Source of the DNA: Pseudonocardiaceae bacterium
GTDB taxonomy: Bacteria > Actinomycetota > Actinomycetes > Mycobacteriales > Pseudonocardiaceae
Length of the DNA stretch: 30,304 nucleotides
Reading direction: 5' to 3'
Assembly: GCA_041751815.1 (NCBI GenBank)
Contig: JBGSWT010000165.1
Coordinates: 1-30,304 of the forward strand
Part shown: piece after piece, positions 13,293 to 18,996 of the stretch
Layout of the letters: each line of letters begins with the position of its first letter
How positions within the stretch are numbered: the stretch's first letter is position 1
Translations under genes and position numbers: made by a program
The notes under the pieces: generated by a model
Told to the model about the DNA's origin: nothing
Seen by the model: only the letters and a program-made list of their open reading frames with translations
Databases searched by the model: none

Positions 13293-13481
13293 TCAGCAGC
13301 AGCGGGTGGCCGGTTGGTTCTCAGCGAGCTTACTGCGCCACCGTTCGAATTCGGACGGGGTCATGACCGGCTGGTCTGGATGTAACCGTCGGTGTCGTGC
13401 AAGGTAGTGGTCGTATCGCGATTCCCCGCTGAATTCACGCAGGTACCAGCGGAGTCCACGAAACAGTTCAGCGATGCTCAT
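13293..13481 (-). CDS. ybdD: YbdD/YjiX-family small protein (CstA partner)
   Basis: WYLREFSGESRYDHYLARHRRLHPDQPVMT and C-terminal RCC; overlaps the cstA stop. Confidence 0.85.
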   Translation of the reverse strand: MSIAELFRGLRWYLREFSGESRYDHYLARHRRLHPDQPVMTPSEFERWRSKLAENQPATRCC

Positions 13482-15639
13482 GGGACGCTCCGTTCGCGAC
13501 CGGGCCGGCGCCCGCCAGTGCCCGGCGTTCTTCGTCGGTGGCGATCAACCCAGCCGCCGCAACGATCTTCGACTCAACAAAGGGCGCCTCGGTACTGGGT
13601 AGCCTCACCGACGAGCGCAACGCCCGAACCCACACCCGTGCCGCGTCCACGATCACCACGCTGATCAGTACTGCGAACAGTAGGGACAGCACTCCGCAGA
13701 CGGTGGAGTTCGTGACCACGGCGACCATGTCGTCGCGGTTGTTCGCCGGCGCTATCCACCGGCCCTGTTCCAGGGCGGTTGAGAAGCGCGCAGCCTGCGC
13801 GAAGAATCCCAGCTCAGGGTCCGACGAGAAGATCTTCTGCCAGCTGGCGGTGAGCGTAACCGCTACGACCCAGGTCAGCGGGACGATGGTCACCCAGCCC
13901 CAGCGGGCCCGGCCGCTCTTGATCAGCAGAGTGGTGCATACCGTCAGTGCGACGGCGGCGAGCAGCTGATTAGCAATCCCAAACAAGGGAAAGAGTTGAT
14001 TGATACCGCCGAGCGGGTTGGTCACTCCGGTGTAGAGAAAATAGCCCCACGCCCCGACAACGGCGGTGCTGGTGGCCCACAGCCCAGGCTTCCAGCTCAG
14101 CTGCCCAAGGGGGCGGTAGACGTTGCCGAGAGTGTCCTGCAGCATGAACCGGCCGACCCGAGTTCCGGCGTCCACCGTGGTCAGGATGAATAGCGCCTCG
14201 AACATGATCGCGAAGTGGTACCAGAACGCCTTCAACGCCGCACCACCGAAGACTCCGGCGAAGATCTCCGACATGCCGATGGCGAGCGTCGGTGCCCCAC
14301 CGGTGCGCGCGATCAGGGTGTCTTCCCCCACGGCGGCGGCCGCCCCGGCTAGCGCGTCCGGAGTGATGGTGAAGCCCAGGTTGTTCACCGCGGCCGAGGC
14401 AGACTCGACAGTGGTACCCAGCAGCCCGGCGGGTGCGTTCATCGCGTAGTACAGGCCAGGATCGATGATGGATGCCGCGATCAGCGCCATGATCGCCACG
14501 AATGACTCCATCAGCATGGCGCCGTAGCCGATCATCCGGACTTGGGACTCTTTCTGGATCATCTTCGGTGTGGTGCCCGACGCAATCAGTGAGTGGAAAC
14601 CACTCAGCGCGCCACAGGCGATGACGATGAAAACGAACGGAAACAGTCCACCGGCGAACACCGGCCCGTCGCCAGAGAAAGCGAACTCCGAGAATGCCTG
14701 GTTTTGCAGCACCGGAGCGGCCACCGCCACACTGATCGCGAGGAGCACGATGGTGCCGATCTTCATGAAGGTCGACAGGTAATCCCGGGGAGCCAGCAAC
14801 ATCCATACCGGCAACACTGACGCCGCGAAACCATAAATGATCACACAGATCACCAAGGTCTGCGGGCGCAGGGTGAACGCCCCCGCCCAGCTGGACCCCT
14901 CGACCCAGCCCCCGGCAATGATCGCCAGGAGCAGCAGGCCGACGCCGATCAGGGTTGTTTCGATCACCTTGCCCGGCCGCAGCATGCGCAGGTAATAGCC
15001 CATAAACAGGGCGATCGGAATCGTCATGGCGATGGAGAACGTTCCCCAGGGGGACCTCGCCAACGCGTTCACCACGACCAGCGCCAGCACCGCAAGCAGA
15101 ATAATCATGATTGCGAAGACGGCGATGAGCGCAGCGGCCCCACCGATCGGCCCGATCTCCTCCCGAGCCATCTGGCCCAGGCTGCGGCCGTCGCGACGCA
15201 TGGAGAAAAACAAAGTGATCATGTCCTGCACAGCGCCGGCGAAGATCACCCCAACGACGATCCACAATGTCCCCGGTAGGTACCCCATCTGGGCAGCCAG
15301 CACGGGGCCGACCAGTGGCCCAGCGCCGGCGATCGCGGCGAAGTGGTGACCGAACAGCACCCGACGATCCGTGGGGTGGTAATCGATGCCGTTGTCCAAC
15401 CGCTCGGCAGGGGTAGCCCTGCGGTCGTCCACCTGCAGTACCCGCCGAGCAATGAACCGCGCGTAGAACCGGTAGGCGATCGCGTAGGAGCCGAGTGCCG
15501 CCGCGAGCAGCCAGATCGCCGAGATCCGCTCGCCTCGGGACAGCGCGAGCACCCCCCAAGCGCTCGCGCTGACCACCGCGACGGTCGTCCACATCAGCAC
15601 CGATCTGGTGCTGATTCGCAAGGTCGAGAGGTTGGTCAC
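13468..15639 (-). CDS. cstA: Carbon starvation protein A family transporter (CstA/BtsT-like)
   Basis: VLFGHHFAAIAGAGPLVGPVLAAQMGYLPG, IACGALSGFHSLIASGTTPK, FEALFILTTVDAGTRVGRF; start GTG 15639 overlaps the upstream stop (GTGA). Confidence 0.95.
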   Translation of the reverse strand: MTNLSTLRISTRSVLMWTTVAVVSASAWGVLALSRGERISAIWLLAAALGSYAIAYRFYARFIARRVLQVDDRRATPAERLDNGIDYHPTDRRVLFGHHFAAIAGAGPLVGPVLAAQMGYLPGTLWIVVGVIFAGAVQDMITLFFSMRRDGRSLGQMAREEIGPIGGAAALIAVFAIMIILLAVLALVVVNALARSPWGTFSIAMTIPIALFMGYYLRMLRPGKVIETTLIGVGLLLLAIIAGGWVEGSSWAGAFTLRPQTLVICVIIYGFAASVLPVWMLLAPRDYLSTFMKIGTIVLLAISVAVAAPVLQNQAFSEFAFSGDGPVFAGGLFPFVFIVIACGALSGFHSLIASGTTPKMIQKESQVRMIGYGAMLMESFVAIMALIAASIIDPGLYYAMNAPAGLLGTTVESASAAVNNLGFTITPDALAGAAAAVGEDTLIARTGGAPTLAIGMSEIFAGVFGGAALKAFWYHFAIMFEALFILTTVDAGTRVGRFMLQDTLGNVYRPLGQLSWKPGLWATSTAVVGAWGYFLYTGVTNPLGGINQLFPLFGIANQLLAAVALTVCTTLLIKSGRARWGWVTIVPLTWVVAVTLTASWQKIFSSDPELGFFAQAARFSTALEQGRWIAPANNRDDMVAVVTNSTVCGVLSLLFAVLISVVIVDAARVWVRALRSSVRLPSTEAPFVESKIVAAAGLIATDEERRALAGAGPVANGASHEHR

Positions 15640-15878
15640 GATGAATTCTGCTTGCTCGGGCGCCGGTGGAGGAGGACATAGGCGATCACCATGAGTAACG
15701 GGGTGAGGAGCACCCAGATCGCCTGGTAGGCGTAGAAGTAGGGAAGCCCGAGAATCCGGGGGGTGCCCGCTGCGTAGAGCGGAACGCACAACAGAGCGCC
15801 ACCGGGGGCCAGCAGGCAGGCCCCCGCGATCACCTGCCGCCACACCTCGCGCCGACGCTGCGGCGTCTGCTCTGCCAT
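15636..15878 (-). CDS. DUF3311-family small membrane protein
   Basis: VPLYAAGTPRILGLPYFYAYQAIWVLLT, two TM helices; RBS GGGAG then ATG 15878. Confidence 0.8.
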   Translation of the reverse strand: MAEQTPQRRREVWRQVIAGACLLAPGGALLCVPLYAAGTPRILGLPYFYAYQAIWVLLTPLLMVIAYVLLHRRPSKQNSS

Positions 15879-15925
15879 CGTCGTTACTCCCACGCTCGCC
15901 GAGGCGACTTGTGCTCGGTCGACGT

Positions 15926-15955
15926 GGTATCACCTCAGTGCGGCCCGGGGTTGAC
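15926..15955 (-). promoter_or_regulatory. Putative ECF-sigma promoter for the DUF3311-cstA arm
   Basis: Minus strand reads GTCAACCC-N14-GTGATACC; same spacing as the + strand copy at 15981. Confidence 0.6.
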
Positions 15956-15980
15956 TCTGTTCCCTCGATCAGGTGATACG

Positions 15981-16010
15981 GTCAACCCTTGGTCTGATCA
16001 AAGCGATAAC
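15981..16010 (+). promoter_or_regulatory. Putative ECF-sigma promoter for the symporter-sigma arm
   Basis: Plus strand reads GTCAACCC-N14-GCGATAAC; an AAC-containing -35 is typical of ECF promoters. Confidence 0.6.
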
Positions 16011-16074
16011 CCCACGTTGGCGCTCCGCCATCTTCCGGCACCCAGCCGAGGTAGCGTCGAGTGGAGGTGCTGCG

Positions 16075-17610
16075 ATGGCCGATCCGGTCGCCCTCGCCGC
16101 GTTGGCCGCGGTGTTAGGAGGCACCTCCTCGCTCGCGCTGTCCGCGCGATGGTTCCGTCAGCGCGACAAACTGCCCGCGTTGGAGGGGTGGGCGCTCGCC
16201 GACCGCCAGTTCGGCCCCGTCATCAGCTGGTTCTTGCTTGGCGGCTCGATCTTCACGGCGTACACGTTTGCGGCGGTTCCGGGCTTGGCCTATGGGGCGG
16301 GCGCGCTGGGATTTTTCGCGCTTCCGTACACCATTATGCTCTGTCCCCTGCTGTTCGTACTGCTTCCACGCTTGTGGTCAGTTGCCCGGCAACATGGTCA
16401 TATCACCGTCGCTGACTACGTGCGGGACCGTTACCGCTCGCCAGGTCTGGCCCTCGCGGTGGCGCTCACGGGCATCCTCGCCACCATGCCTTATCTCGCC
16501 CTCCAGTTGCTCGGCATTCGAGCCGTGCTGAACGCAGGAGGGATCTACCCCCGAGGCTTCACCGGCGACCTCATTCTCGTGGCAGTTTTCGCCGTCCTCG
16601 CTGGTGCGACGTATCGAAGCGGCCTGCGCGCCCCGACCGTCATCTCGCTCATCAAAGGTGCTCTGATCTTCGGAGCTGCCTTGGGTGCGGTCGCAACGGT
16701 CCTGATCCAACTCGGCCCGCCAAGCACGATCTTCGACGCGGCGTCAAGCAGGCTTCCGCCAGCCGGTGGAGACGGGTTGCTTCTGGACCCGGGTCTGTAT
16801 ACCGCGTTTGCCAGCCTGGCGCTCGGCTCCGCTCTCGCTCTGCCGATGTATCCGCATGTGCTCACCGCCACGTTCGCCGCCGATGGCCCGGATTCCCTAC
16901 GCCGTGCGACGATCGCGCTGCCAGCATGGACCGCGATCCTCGGCCTTTTCGGGTTTCTCGGGATCGCTGCGCTCGCGGCTGGTGTCGAAGCCCCACTTGG
17001 CAATGCCGAAGCTGCCGTTCCCCTTCTGGTGGCCGACCTGATGCCCAGCATCCTCAGCGGAGCGATCTTCGGTGCGCTCGCCGTCGGCGCACTCGTGCCG
17101 GCCGCCGTGATGTCGGTCGCGGTCGCCACCTTGTTCGTCCGCAATATCTACGTCCCGTACTTCTTCCCCACCGCCACCCCGAAGCACGAGGTGAAGGTCG
17201 CCAGAGTCGTCTCGTTGATTGCGAAAATCGGCGCGCTCGCATTTGTGTTCGGACTGCGCGACCAGGACGCCATCAACCTCCAACTCCTCGGCGGAGTATG
17301 GATCCTGCAGACCTTTCCCGCGGTGGCGATCGGACTTTATAGTACTTGGTTACATGGACGCGCCCTGCTCGTGGGCTGGATGGTGGGCATGATCATCGGA
17401 ACGCAGCTCGTTGTATCGGGCGGATTCTCCTCGCTGGTGAACATCGGCACCGCTCGGTGGCCGATCCACGTCTACGCCGCCCTGCTCGCCCTTATCATTA
17501 ACCTCGCGATCGCCGCGGCACTCACCCCAGTGCTGCGTCGATACGATCTCCGCGGTGGGCTCGACCCGACCGCGACCGACCTGAAACCACCGACGGGTGG
17601 TGTCACATGA
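16075..17610 (+). CDS. Sodium:solute symporter (SLC5/SSS), MctP/YhjB monocarboxylate-permease-like
   Basis: EGWALADRQFGPVISWFLLGGSIFTAYTFAAVPG, ATMPYLALQL, YPHVLT, ALVPAAVMS, INLQLLGGVWILQTFPA; RBS GGAGGT before ATG 16075. Confidence 0.9.
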   Translation: MADPVALAALAAVLGGTSSLALSARWFRQRDKLPALEGWALADRQFGPVISWFLLGGSIFTAYTFAAVPGLAYGAGALGFFALPYTIMLCPLLFVLLPRLWSVARQHGHITVADYVRDRYRSPGLALAVALTGILATMPYLALQLLGIRAVLNAGGIYPRGFTGDLILVAVFAVLAGATYRSGLRAPTVISLIKGALIFGAALGAVATVLIQLGPPSTIFDAASSRLPPAGGDGLLLDPGLYTAFASLALGSALALPMYPHVLTATFAADGPDSLRRATIALPAWTAILGLFGFLGIAALAAGVEAPLGNAEAAVPLLVADLMPSILSGAIFGALAVGALVPAAVMSVAVATLFVRNIYVPYFFPTATPKHEVKVARVVSLIAKIGALAFVFGLRDQDAINLQLLGGVWILQTFPAVAIGLYSTWLHGRALLVGWMVGMIIGTQLVVSGGFSSLVNIGTARWPIHVYAALLALIINLAIAAALTPVLRRYDLRGGLDPTATDLKPPTGGVT

Positions 17611-18104
17611 CCGAGCCAAGCGACCGGGCGCAGGCCGTCGCCACGCTCTACGAGGCCCACCACCAAGAATTGACACGGTACGCGCGCCGGCGCGGAGCAG
17701 ACGATCCCGAAGACATCGCAAGCGAAGCCTTCGATCTGCTTTTGGAAAGTGGCCGAAGAATCGATGCACCTCTGCCGTGGCTGCGCAAGGTGATTCGCAA
17801 TCTGATCTGCAACCGCGTCCGGCGTATCGAACGCGATCGGAAGTTCGCTGTCCTCATAGGGTCGGAGCCCCCAACAGCACCGTCGGCCGAGGACAAAGCC
17901 GCCCTCAGCGAGGATCAACGATCCATGATCAACGCTCTCAAGCAGCTGTCGCCCCGACAGCGGGAGGTACTCGTATTGCGGTTTTATTATGGTCGTTCTG
18001 AAGAAGAGATCGCGGCCGAACTGGGGATCGCGGCAGGAACCGTCAAGAAGCATGCCCACCGCGGAATAGAGAAGCTGAAAAAGACCCTGGAGGGGGAGAA
18101 GTGA
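17607..18104 (+). CDS. ECF RNA polymerase sigma factor (SigE-family-like)
   Basis: Region 2 (PEDIASEAF..WLRKVIRNL) and region 4 (LSPRQREVLVLRFYYGRSEEEIAAELGIAAGTVKKHAHRG); ATGA-coupled to the symporter. Confidence 0.9.
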   Translation: MTEPSDRAQAVATLYEAHHQELTRYARRRGADDPEDIASEAFDLLLESGRRIDAPLPWLRKVIRNLICNRVRRIERDRKFAVLIGSEPPTAPSAEDKAALSEDQRSMINALKQLSPRQREVLVLRFYYGRSEEEIAAELGIAAGTVKKHAHRGIEKLKKTLEGEK

Positions 18105-18382
18105 CCACCGGCGACACCGAACAGCGTCTACGCGACGCCCTTGGCGCGCTCGCCGCCGAGGTTCACCCTGATCCTGGCGCTTACCGCCGGGCCATCACCG
18201 GATGGAAGCGGCGCGAGCGCAAGCGCCGGCTCATCGTTGCGATCCTGAGCGCGCTCATCTTCACGACCGCCGACGTGATCGGCCTCTGGGCGCTCAATCA
18301 AGCCAACTCGAACTCCCACATCATCTTCTCCGACTCATCCACCGTCGAACACCGTCCCATCGGACGCCTTGGCCAACCTTGA
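18101..18382 (+). CDS. Small single-pass membrane protein, putative anti-sigma factor
   Basis: GTGA-coupled to the sigma gene; EQRLRDALGALA helix, basic KRRERKRR stretch, one TM helix, short tail. Confidence 0.65.
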   Translation: MTTGDTEQRLRDALGALAAEVHPDPGAYRRAITGWKRRERKRRLIVAILSALIFTTADVIGLWALNQANSNSHIIFSDSSTVEHRPIGRLGQP

Positions 18383-18412: not shown

Positions 18413-18802
18413 CTATGGGAGGTTGGCAGTGCCAATTTCTGGATCGATCGCGCAGCCCACTCGTAAGGCGGCAGCGGCCAGGCACCGGTCAGCGGTCCAC
18501 AACGCGGCATCAGCAGTCAGTTGCGTTGCCGCGAGCAGCTGTACGTCGACATAGCCGATGCCAAGCCCGAACAGCTGATGACGATCGATCAGGGCCATGA
18601 CTTCCTCGTCAGCGGCGACCGTCGCTTGCGGCAGGCCGCCCAGCAACCTCATCATCTCGTGACGTTGAGCTAGGTGACCGAGAGCCAGCTCGCCGACCAC
18701 CCAGGGGTGACCGAGGACCAGGTCGCCTTCAAGCAACCGCACGAGGGTCGGCTGACCCGTTCGCAGGTGATCGATCCAGATCGACGTGTCGACGAGAATC
18801 AC
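18413..18802 (-). CDS. vapC: VapC PIN-domain toxin
   Basis: MILVDTSIWIDHL, GEL, GIGYVDVQLLA and LWTAD acidic PIN motifs. Confidence 0.92.
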   Translation of the reverse strand: MILVDTSIWIDHLRTGQPTLVRLLEGDLVLGHPWVVGELALGHLAQRHEMMRLLGGLPQATVAADEEVMALIDRHQLFGLGIGYVDVQLLAATQLTADAALWTADRCLAAAALRVGCAIDPEIGTANLP

Positions 18803-18996
18803 AGAGATGCGGTGCGACGCCTCGGGATCTCGGTCAGCGCGGGCTCAGTCCCGCCGAGCCTGGCAAGCCGGCGGGCGCTCTCGCGCTGGATGAGGGCCCG
18901 TAGGGCGTCGCGGACCAGAGCGCTCTTTTCCATGGTTCCAGTCAGACGCTGCGCCTCCGCGACGAGATCGTCATCAAGGGCAAGGGTTGTCCGCAT
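18799..18996 (-). CDS. vapB: VapB antitoxin (RHH-like)
   Basis: MRTTLALDDDLVAEAQRLTG..KSALVRDALRALI; GTGA overlap with vapC. Confidence 0.9.
   Translation of the reverse strand: MRTTLALDDDLVAEAQRLTGTMEKSALVRDALRALIQRESARRLARLGGTEPALTEIPRRRTASL

What the first reader, a model, noticed from the sequence alone, without database searches (positions are those of the whole stretch)
15926..16010. Twin back-to-back promoter motif GTCAACCC-N14-GYGATA predicts the ECF sigma's own recognition sequence
Minus strand 15955 to 15926 reads GTCAACCC-cgggccgcactgag-GTGATA. Plus strand 15981-16008 reads GTCAACCC-ttggtctgatcaaa-GCGATA. The 8-mer is identical, the spacer is 14 nt in both, and the hexamer differs at one base, while the spacer sequences are unrelated. 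Each copy points into one arm of the module. AAC-core -35 elements and autoregulation are standard for ECF sigmas, so this probably defines the regulon (inference). I found no other complete copy in the window.
Basis: partly seen in the sequence, partly recalled or inferred. Interest (0 to 1): 0.7.

Follow-up and report, generated by a model that had tools for sequence, protein, structure and literature searches.

The report
Twin ECF sigma promoters between transporter operons
The two back-to-back motifs are real and are very probably the promoters read by the neighbouring ECF sigma factor; they switch on two monocarboxylate-type transporter operons and the sigma gene itself, an ordinary kind of circuit in a sigma family that nobody seems to have described.

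Summary
GTCAACCC-N14-GCGATA lies on the plus strand at 15981..16008. Shuffles give no such match.

The motifs sit between two divergent operons: DUF3311-CstA-YbdD-like, and MctP-like symporter-ECF sigma-small membrane protein. The same module occurs in about 40 actinobacterial loci. Their intergenic regions carry a two-block motif, GT(C/A)AACC-N15-(G/A)CAACT, always pointing into an arm, with a non-conserved spacer.

CstA homologues and 66 symporter paralogue loci without this sigma lack the motif. Genome-wide matches away from the locus are at control level.

The window's small clade keeps the -35 box but has a different -10 box (GYGATA, not GCAACT). Its sigma differs at parts of sigma region 2 known to read the -10 element. 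The -34 base also tracks the residue at the known -34-reading position.

No transcription start or sigma dependence could be tested. This is a new member of a known kind: an autoregulated ECF promoter pair.

The counts of congeners lacking the module include the unpublished genomes G007, G010 and G031. No positive evidence rests on them.

The parts
15928..15955 (-). CstA-side promoter: -35 box GTCAACC (15955..15949), 15-nt spacer, -10 box GTGATA (15933..15928). The predicted start is about 15922-15919, giving a leader of about 41-44 nt to the ATG at 15878.
   Evidence: The -35 box is conserved in L003 and L004. The family counterpart GT(C/A)AACC-N15-(G/A)CAACT is present on this side in nearly all module loci.
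15981..16008 (+). Symporter/sigma-side (autoregulatory) promoter: -35 box GTCAACC (15981..15987), 15-nt spacer, -10 box GCGATA (16003..16008). The predicted start is about 16014-16017, giving a leader of about 60 nt to the ATG at 16075, which is preceded by GGAGG.
   Evidence: GCGATA is identical in L003 and L004. The family counterpart lies 54-91 nt upstream of the symporter start in most loci.
15636..15878 (-). Small membrane protein, DUF3311 (80 aa). It is the first gene of the left arm.
   Evidence: Pfam PF11755, E 5.7e-13. Its TGA stop overlaps the GTG start of cstA.
13468..15639 (-). CstA-family transporter (723 aa from the GTG at 15639).
   Evidence: Pfam PF02554, 857 bits. It matches NCBIfam pyruvate/proton symporter CstA at 806 bits, below the equivalog cut-off of 1188. 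The start was read.
13293..13481 (-). 62-aa ORF in the position of the YbdD/YjiX-like (Sel_put) gene that follows cstA in L003 and L004.
   Evidence: ORF list. A 62-aa Sel_put gene is called after CstA in L003 and L004. This ORF was not scanned itself.
16075..17610 (+). Sodium:solute symporter family protein, MctP-like (511 aa). It is the first gene of the right arm.
   Evidence: Pfam PF00474. It matches NCBIfam monocarboxylate permease MctP at 509 bits, below the cut-off of 625.
17607..18104 (+). ECF sigma factor (165 aa). Its ATG overlaps the symporter's TGA stop.
   Evidence: Pfam sigma70 region 2 and region 4. TIGR02937 scores 89 bits, above its cut-off. The closest solved relative is M. 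tuberculosis SigL.
18101..18382 (+). 93-aa single-pass membrane protein, the probable anti-sigma factor. Its GTG overlaps the sigma's TGA stop.
   Evidence: No Pfam or NCBIfam family. It is conserved at 48-89% identity behind the sigma in 16 other module loci. The complex prediction with the sigma gave weak support only.

Best explanation
The two motifs are divergent, back-to-back promoters recognised by RNA polymerase carrying the ECF sigma factor encoded at 17607-18104. Sigma region 4 reads GTCAACC (the AAC-core -35 box). Sigma region 2 reads G(C/T)GATA 15 nt further on. The minus-strand copy drives DUF3311-cstA-ybdD-like. The plus-strand copy drives the MctP-like symporter, the sigma itself and the 93-aa membrane protein, which is a positive feedback loop. 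The membrane protein probably holds the sigma inactive until a signal arrives; this step is inferred. The output is co-induction of two monocarboxylate/pyruvate-type uptake systems. What is shown: the motif, its geometry, its conservation, its co-occurrence with the sigma, and its co-variation with sigma residues. What is inferred: actual transcription starts, sigma dependence, the anti-sigma role and the signal.
For: (1) There are exact twin copies and none in shuffles.
(2) Position and orientation fit promoters. The boxes end 70 nt (plus) and 50 nt (minus) before start codons that have Shine-Dalgarno sequences.
(3) The module CstA<>symporter-sigma-membrane protein recurs in about 40 loci from Streptomyces, Actinomadura, Embleya, Lentzea, Dactylosporangium and MAGs.
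(4) 65 sites in 39 loci give G-GT(C/A)AACC-N15-(G/A)CAACT. Information is high in the two blocks and low in the spacer, and the spacer is 15 nt in nearly all.
(5) Specificity controls hold. Two CstA homologues outside the module have no motif. None of 66 symporter paralogue loci without the sigma has it upstream. A sigma paralogue genome, G045, has none.
(6) In five large genomes the pattern occurs 0-4 times, with 1-2 of those at the locus and the rest at the level of the reversed-pattern control.
(7) The geometry matches the experimentally mapped S. coelicolor sigma-E promoters, xxxAACC, 16 nt, then a hexamer (PMC6767563).
(8) Aligned to E. coli RpoE, the Asn84 position is Met in 35 of 36 GCAACT-type sigmas and Asn in the three GYGATA-type sigmas. 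The loop before the conserved W/Y-L, the specificity loop, is 3 residues shorter in the latter. At the Ser172 position, Ser/Ala goes with A at -34 (GTAAACC) and Thr/Val/Lys goes with C (GTCAACC), without exception on the CstA side. The Arg171 position is invariant Lys, next to invariant AAC. Todor et al. showed by mutagenesis that these positions set the -12/-13, -34 and -31 bases (PMC7776599). Li et al. describe the specificity loop as reading the flipped -10 base (PMC6411747).
(9) In one Streptomyces clade that lost the CstA arm, the CstA-side boxes are degraded while the sigma-side copy is kept.
(10) In a near-identical strain from another metagenome, the only differences across 15905-16074 lie between the two -35 boxes.
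Against: There is no transcription-start or expression data, because no RNA run holds the stretch. The -10 box of this clade rests on three closely related loci only, and the minus-strand -10 of L004 is poor (GGGACA). The co-variation rests on few independent events. The -34 base changes 3 times on the symporter tree, giving 2-3 concordant independent pairs and a sign test of p 0.5. The -10 switch is a single event. The two -35 boxes also form an 8-nt inverted repeat, which a dimeric regulator could in principle use. Most family loci carry extra GATTTC repeats between the boxes, so another factor may take part. The own genome is only 65.6% complete, so further targets could exist.
Confidence: 0.8

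Rival explanations
1. The boxes are binding sites of another DNA-binding protein. This could be a dimeric repressor or activator using the GGGTTGAC/GTCAACCC inverted repeat, or a response regulator using repeats. Another ECF paralogue of the genome could also be the reader instead of the neighbouring sigma.
For: The 8-nt arms are perfectly complementary, 25 nt apart, and are kept in L003 and L004. The own genome gave 47 first-look candidates in the sigma search. The family loci carry additional GATTTC repeats with an 11-nt period. In E. coli, CstA-family transporters are controlled by LytTR-type two-component systems (established knowledge).
Against: At least nine module loci have only one copy of the motif, on the CstA side, and therefore no inverted repeat. 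The conserved unit is the asymmetric pair of -35-like and -10-like boxes with a fixed 15-nt spacer, always pointing at a gene. The extended palindrome of L004 is not conserved. The only regulator genes conserved in the module are the sigma and its partner. The boxes co-vary with this sigma's own DNA-reading residues. In the window the two boxes are not repeats of one another.
Confidence: 0.12
2. The conserved GGTTGAC is the -35 hexamer (TTGAC) of housekeeping-sigma promoters reading in the opposite directions. This would make them face-to-face overlapping promoters.
For: The reverse complement of GTCAAC contains TTGAC. In Streptomyces loci it reads TTGACA. In the window, TTGACT (15951-15956) is followed after 19 nt by TACGGT, which fits TAnnnT (read).
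Against: The sigma-70-type scan of 15800-16150 found no promoter-like site. The TAnnnT partner has a 19-nt spacer and is not kept in L003 or L004. Many family loci have GGTTTAC instead. The conserved partner box (GCAACT or GYGATA) lies on the other side, at a fixed 15 nt.
Confidence: 0.04
3. The similarity of the two copies is a chance or historical by-product, for example a local inverted duplication, with no function.
For: L004 shows that local inverted duplication does occur here: a 19-bp perfect palindrome. The three close loci are too similar for conservation among them alone to prove constraint.
Against: Shuffles give 0 matches. The two-block pattern persists across genera where the spacer and flanks are scrambled. 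It decays where the target arm is lost.
Confidence: 0.03

Closest known systems
Streptomyces coelicolor sigma-E (SigE) target promoters, mapped by S1 nuclease and in vitro transcription (Tran et al. 2019, PMC6767563)
   Same: Both are actinobacterial ECF sigmas whose best NCBIfam model is the SigE family. Both have a -35 box of the form xxxAACC (GGCAACC; one mapped target even reads GTCAACC), then 16-17 nt, then a -10 hexamer. The geometry is the same as GTCAACC + 16 nt + CGATAA / TGATAC here.
   Different: The -10 box is CGTCTT there, against GCAACT (family) or GYGATA (this clade) here. SigE has a large cell-envelope regulon and is transcribed under a two-component system. Here the predicted regulon is two local transporter operons, and the sigma scores below the SigE-family cut-off (112 vs 141.55 bits).
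Mycobacterium tuberculosis SigL (PDB 6dv9 and others; Lin et al. 2019, PMC6372665)
   Same: It is the closest solved relative by profile search (E 9e-17). It is an ECF sigma followed by a membrane anti-sigma and is autoregulated from its own promoter (P-sigL).
   Different: Its -10 consensus is different (CG-TG-N-C/A-A-G). Its targets are different, and its anti-sigma (RslA) is a zinc-binding class I protein. The partner here is far shorter and has no recognised anti-sigma domain.
ECF promoter discovery and specificity code of Todor et al. 2020 (PMC7776599)
   Same: The logic is the same: a two-block motif upstream of the sigma's operon and of the divergent gene. Specificity is set by the residues aligned with RpoE Asn84, Arg171 and Ser172, and these are exactly the positions that differ or co-vary here.
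   Different: That work is a general method and dictionary. I could not check whether this family's motif is in its data sets, since the supplements are not held. The -10 switch with a shortened specificity loop seen here is a natural instance, not an engineered one.
E. coli BtsS/BtsR-BtsT and YpdA/YpdB-YhjX; Rhizobium MctS/MctR-MctP (from established knowledge, not tested here)
   Same: These are dedicated local regulators that switch on CstA-family or MctP-type monocarboxylate/pyruvate transporters.
   Different: Those are two-component systems with LytTR or other response regulators binding repeats. Here the regulator is an ECF sigma with a small membrane partner, and the sites are promoters themselves.

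Membership tests
ECF (group 4) sigma-70 family sigma factor (protein 17607-18104) | Only sigma regions 2 and 4, in a small protein | tested here: met
   165 aa. Pfam Sigma70_r2, Sigma70_r4 and r4_2. TIGR02937 sigma70-ECF scores 89.3 bits against a cut-off of 42.9.
SigE family of actinobacterial ECF sigmas (TIGR02983) | Score at or above the curated cut-off | tested here: not met
   It is the best model but scores 112.3 bits against a cut-off of 141.55. The sigma is related to this subfamily but not a member by the curated threshold.
ECF sigma / anti-sigma pair | Co-transcribed partner that binds the sigma | tested here: inconclusive
   The GTGA overlap with the sigma was read. The partner is conserved behind the sigma in 16 other loci. 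It has no anti-sigma Pfam domain. Complex prediction: score 0.51, best control 0.02. That mark was reached by 58 of 80 solved complexes and 2 of 110 mismatches. At 0.60 or under, it was reached by only 7 of the 80 and by both passing mismatches. Runs agree in at least 65% of contacts, and the partner's pLDDT is at least 55. The verdict is weak support, obtained with my own alignments.
ECF sigma-dependent promoter | Bipartite motif with an AAC-core -35 box and a -10 box at fixed spacing | tested here: met
   GTCAACC-N15-GYGATA occurs twice. The family has GT(C/A)AACC-N15-(G/A)CAACT, with a 15-nt spacer in 59 of the 65 sites found. The geometry is as in mapped sigma-E promoters.
ECF sigma-dependent promoter | Conserved upstream of orthologous operons while the spacer and flanks vary; absent where the sigma is absent | tested here: met
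   (presence). (absence at CstA homologues, at 66 symporter paralogue loci and in a paralogue genome).
ECF sigma-dependent promoter | Box bases co-vary with the sigma's specificity-determining residues | tested here: inconclusive
   The changes are fully concordant at the positions aligned with RpoE Asn84, Ser172 and Arg171 and at the specificity loop. However, there are only 2-3 independent changes for -34 and one for the -10 box, with a sign test of p 0.5.
ECF sigma-dependent promoter | Transcription start 5-10 nt downstream of the -10 box, dependent on the sigma | not testable with these tools
   No RNA run holds the stretch. This needs 5'-RACE, dRNA-seq or in vitro transcription.
Housekeeping (sigma-70/HrdB-type) promoter | TTGACA-like and TAnnnT-like hexamers 16-18 nt apart | tested here: not met
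   No site was found in 15800-16150. The only TAnnnT candidate has a 19-nt spacer and is not conserved.
Palindromic operator of a dimeric regulator | Two inverted half-sites required and conserved | tested here: not met
   The 8-nt arms exist in the window. At least nine orthologous loci carry a single oriented copy only, and the longer palindrome of L004 is not shared.
Known RNA element (riboswitch or leader) | Match to an Rfam model | tested here: not met
   No match up to E 1 in 15500-16400.

The most novel reading that the evidence does not exclude
This is an undescribed, widespread actinobacterial ECF family that works as a nutrient-uptake switch rather than a stress response. A minimal membrane anti-sigma, translationally coupled to an MctP-like symporter, would report monocarboxylate/pyruvate transport, with the transporter acting as co-sensor. 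The sigma would then turn on a CstA-type and an MctP-type importer plus itself. The window's lineage would in addition be a natural case of promoter-specificity rewiring. It has a 3-residue deletion in the sigma-2 specificity loop and Met to Asn at the RpoE-Asn84 position, and the -10 boxes of both target promoters changed in step.
Probability: 0.3. Interest if true: 0.6.

Novelty: new member of a known kind. Interest (0 to 1): 0.4.

Why it matters
The finding gives a concrete, testable recognition sequence for an ECF sigma family with no described member that I could find. More than 790 close relatives of the Streptomyces member were found. It links that family to two monocarboxylate/pyruvate-type transporters, which is an unusual output for ECF sigmas; these are mostly tied to envelope or oxidative stress.

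Across five large genomes the motif is close to unique to the locus. The pair of sigma and promoter is therefore a candidate orthogonal switch. The window's clade also offers a natural before-and-after pair for the rules that tie sigma-2 residues to -10 bases. The mechanism itself, an autoregulated ECF promoter, is textbook.

Tried and rejected
RNA evidence: the look-up of sequencing runs listed no RNA holder, so no start sites or expression could be read.

Literature:
- Searches for an ECF sigma next to CstA or a solute symporter found nothing relevant.
- A search for GTCAACC with ECF gave only the sigma-E paper.
- The main text of the ECF re-classification (PMC7826278 and its preprint) mentions neither transporter, and its supplements are not held.
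- Huang et al. 2015 (PMC4518836) is not held.
- I therefore could not assign an ECF group number, nor check whether a group-level motif was already predicted.

Earlier notes: the scan's earlier notes held nothing on this motif in other genomes.

L144: this is the closest symporter relative outside the clade, and its genes are rearranged. More of its contig could not be fetched, so its CstA upstream region is unknown.

Other clade members: sigmas at 55-79% identity (P0003, P0004, P0006, P0007) lie on contigs too short to include the intergenic region.

Same-genus genomes: neither the sigma orthologue nor CstA was found in the 24 searched. They therefore gave no comparison. Two of those 24 (G007, G010) and G031 are unpublished.

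Rfam and the sigma-70 scan: nothing found.

Third GTGATA copy: I considered that the copy at 15973-15978, part of a 9-nt inverted repeat with the minus-strand -10 box, is a further promoter or an operator. It is not kept in L003 or L004, so I left it as unexplained.

Run X7: its contig over 15818-15960 shows its listed differences outside the boxes. Six differences were not displayed, so I draw nothing from it.

Full report
OBSERVATION

The sequence and a pattern search confirm two matches to GTCAACCC-N14-GYGATA. One is on the minus strand at 15955..15928 and ends in GTGATA. The other is on the plus strand at 15981..16008 and ends in GCGATA. All 100 dinucleotide-preserving shuffles gave 0 matches.

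The own genome is a MAG: 4.15 Mb, 927 contigs, 65.6% complete. It holds the full pattern only here. A relaxed pattern adds one hit, inside a long ORF on the antisense strand of another contig.

SURROUNDINGS

On the minus strand the motif faces three genes:
- an 80-aa DUF3311 membrane protein (15878..15636);
- a CstA-family transporter that starts at a GTG overlapping the DUF3311 stop (15639..13468);
- a 62-aa ORF in the place of the YbdD-like gene.

On the plus strand it faces three more genes:
- an MctP-like sodium:solute symporter (16075..17610);
- an ECF sigma (17607..18104, ATGA overlap);
- a 93-aa single-pass membrane protein (18101..18382, GTGA overlap).

Both -10 boxes lie 50-70 nt before start codons that have Shine-Dalgarno sequences. 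No sigma-70-type promoter, terminator or Rfam element is found in the intergenic region.

CLOSE RELATIVES

Sigmas of 76-84% identity lie on two metagenome contigs with identical gene order, L003 and L004.
- Both keep GGGTTGAC and GTCAAC, 26 nt apart.
- Both keep GCGATA on the plus side.
- On the minus side the -10 box reads GTGATT (L003) and GGGACA (L004).

These loci are too close for their conservation alone to show constraint.

DISTANT RELATIVES

None of the 24 same-genus species genomes searched has the sigma orthologue or CstA. That count includes the unpublished G007 and G010; G031 is also unpublished. The module is therefore accessory in this genus.

Two wider scans were run: one of species genomes with a sigma alignment and one of metagenomes with the symporter N-terminus. 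tblastn with the window's five proteins followed. Together they found the same module, CstA<>symporter-sigma-membrane protein, in about 40 loci. These come from Streptomyces, Actinomadura, Embleya, Lentzea, Dactylosporangium and many MAGs, including G038 of the window's own order.

Their intergenic regions contain 65 sites in 39 loci with the consensus G-GT(C/A)AACC-N15-(G/A)CAACT. The information profile has two sharp blocks and a flat spacer, and the spacer is 15 nt in almost every case. The CstA-side copy is nearly universal. The symporter/sigma-side copy lies 54-91 nt before the symporter start in most loci, but it is missing in about a third of the diverse ones. Autoregulation is therefore frequent but not obligatory.

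SPECIFICITY CONTROLS

- CstA homologues outside the module (G035, G036) have no motif upstream.
- None of 66 symporter paralogue loci without the sigma has it in front of the gene.
- In five large genomes the pattern occurs 0-4 times, with 1-2 of those at the module. The remainder equals the reversed-pattern control and includes two sequences shared between genomes, which look like coding DNA.
- One Streptomyces clade lost the CstA arm; on the symporter tree this is a single event. There the CstA-side boxes are degraded (GCCACT, GGCAAC) while the sigma-side copy is intact.

The geometry equals that of mapped S. coelicolor sigma-E promoters, GGCAACC, 16 nt, CGTCTT (PMC6767563).

I aligned the module sigmas to E. 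coli RpoE, taken from NC_000913.3.
- At the RpoE-Asn84 position, 35 of 36 sigmas with GCAACT boxes have Met. The three sigmas of the window clade, with GYGATA boxes, have Asn.
- The loop just before the conserved W/Y-L, the specificity loop, is 3 residues shorter in the window clade.
- At the Ser172 position, Ser or Ala goes with A at -34 (GTAAACC). Thr, Val or Lys goes with C (GTCAACC). There is no exception on the CstA side.
- The Arg171 position is always Lys, next to the invariant AAC.

Todor et al. showed by saturation mutagenesis that these three positions set the -12/-13, -34 and -31 bases (PMC7776599).

This fits a sigma and its promoters changing together, but the number of independent events is small. 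On a symporter tree the -34 base changes three times, with 2-3 concordant independent pairs (sign test p 0.5). The -10 switch happened once. On that tree the window clade is nested next to L144 and L148, so its state is derived.

THE PARTNER PROTEIN

The 93-aa protein is conserved behind the sigma at 48-89% identity. It has a roughly 40-residue cytoplasmic head, one membrane span and a short outer tail. It has no recognised anti-sigma domain.

A complex prediction of the sigma with its head gave weak support. The score was 0.51 and the best control 0.02. That mark was reached by 58 of 80 solved complexes and 2 of 110 mismatches. At 0.60 or under, it was reached by only 7 of the 80 and by both passing mismatches. 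Runs agree in at least 65% of contacts, and the partner's pLDDT is at least 55. My own alignments were used. I treat the anti-sigma role as likely but inferred.

POPULATION VARIATION

A cave-metagenome contig covers 15905-16074 and differs by one deletion (15962) and one substitution (15971). Both lie between the two -35 boxes. This is minor support.

RIVALS

- A palindromic operator is unlikely. At least nine loci have only one oriented copy, and the long palindrome of L004 is not shared.
- Opposite-direction housekeeping promoters using TTGAC are unlikely. No conserved TAnnnT partner exists, and many loci read GGTTTAC.
- Another factor may still contribute. Most family loci carry GATTTC repeats with an 11-nt period between the -35 boxes, but the window clade does not.

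VERDICT

- the conserved -35 unit is a 7-mer followed by N15;
- GYGATA is clade-specific, and the family uses GCAACT;
- the predicted regulon is the two local operons.

The kind of thing, an autoregulated ECF promoter pair, is well known. The family and its link to monocarboxylate-type transporters appear undescribed in what I could search. Start sites and sigma dependence remain to be shown experimentally.

Noticed in passing
L145:2110-2155; also L146, L152, L070, L062 (between the two -35 boxes): Most family loci carry two or three (G/A)ATTTC(C) direct repeats with an 11-nt period, starting 4 nt after GGTT(G/T)AC. That places them just upstream of both -35 boxes. The window clade lacks them. 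They could be an UP-like element or a site for a further regulator.
   Followed up: partly
window 15927-15935 and 15971-15979: There is a perfect 9-nt inverted repeat, GTATCACCT / AGGTGATAC. The minus-strand -10 box thus has a mirror copy directly upstream of the plus-strand -35 box, giving a third GTGATA. It is not conserved in L003 or L004.
   Followed up: partly
L004:4351-4392: A 19-bp perfect palindrome with a 4-nt centre spans both -35 boxes. It is specific to this locus and suggests a local inverted duplication or conversion between the two promoter arms.
   Followed up: partly
window 13293-18382 versus genomes G001-G024: Neither CstA nor the sigma orthologue was found in any of the 24 same-genus species genomes searched, so the whole module looks accessory or acquired in this lineage. 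The count includes the unpublished G007 and G010.
   Followed up: partly
L065, L073, L078, L079, L155, L156 (Streptomyces): In one clade the DUF3311-CstA arm is replaced by an unrelated gene. The CstA-side boxes have decayed, while the sigma-side promoter is kept. In L078 the sigma also has Asp and Thr at the RpoE-Asn80 and Asn84 positions, which may mean the gene is decaying.
   Followed up: partly
L144:164-4874: In the closest symporter relative outside the clade, the genes are rearranged onto one strand: cstA, a ybdD-like gene, the symporter, the sigma and the partner. There is no motif between the ybdD-like gene and the symporter. The region upstream of cstA could not be fetched.
   Followed up: partly
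window 15636-15878 versus paralogue loci L160, L178, L184: In ordinary loci DUF3311 sits directly upstream of its symporter on the same strand. In this module it heads the opposite arm and is translationally coupled to cstA instead.
   Followed up: no
window 18413-18996, minus strand: A VapB antitoxin (65 aa, strong Pfam match) and a weak PIN-domain partner (129 aa) lie immediately downstream of the sigma operon, convergent with it.
   Followed up: no
window 15891-16045 in run X5: One contig of a more divergent relative in a cave metagenome joins 15891 to 16045 and skips the whole promoter region. What lies between is not known.
   Followed up: no
window 17607-18104 versus 16075-17610 and 18101-18382: The sigma of this clade is only 39-48% identical to the family's sigmas. 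The flanking symporter (about 65-76%), CstA (about 71-83%) and membrane partner (48-64%) are much closer. The sigma, mainly its region 2, has therefore evolved unusually fast here.
   Followed up: partly
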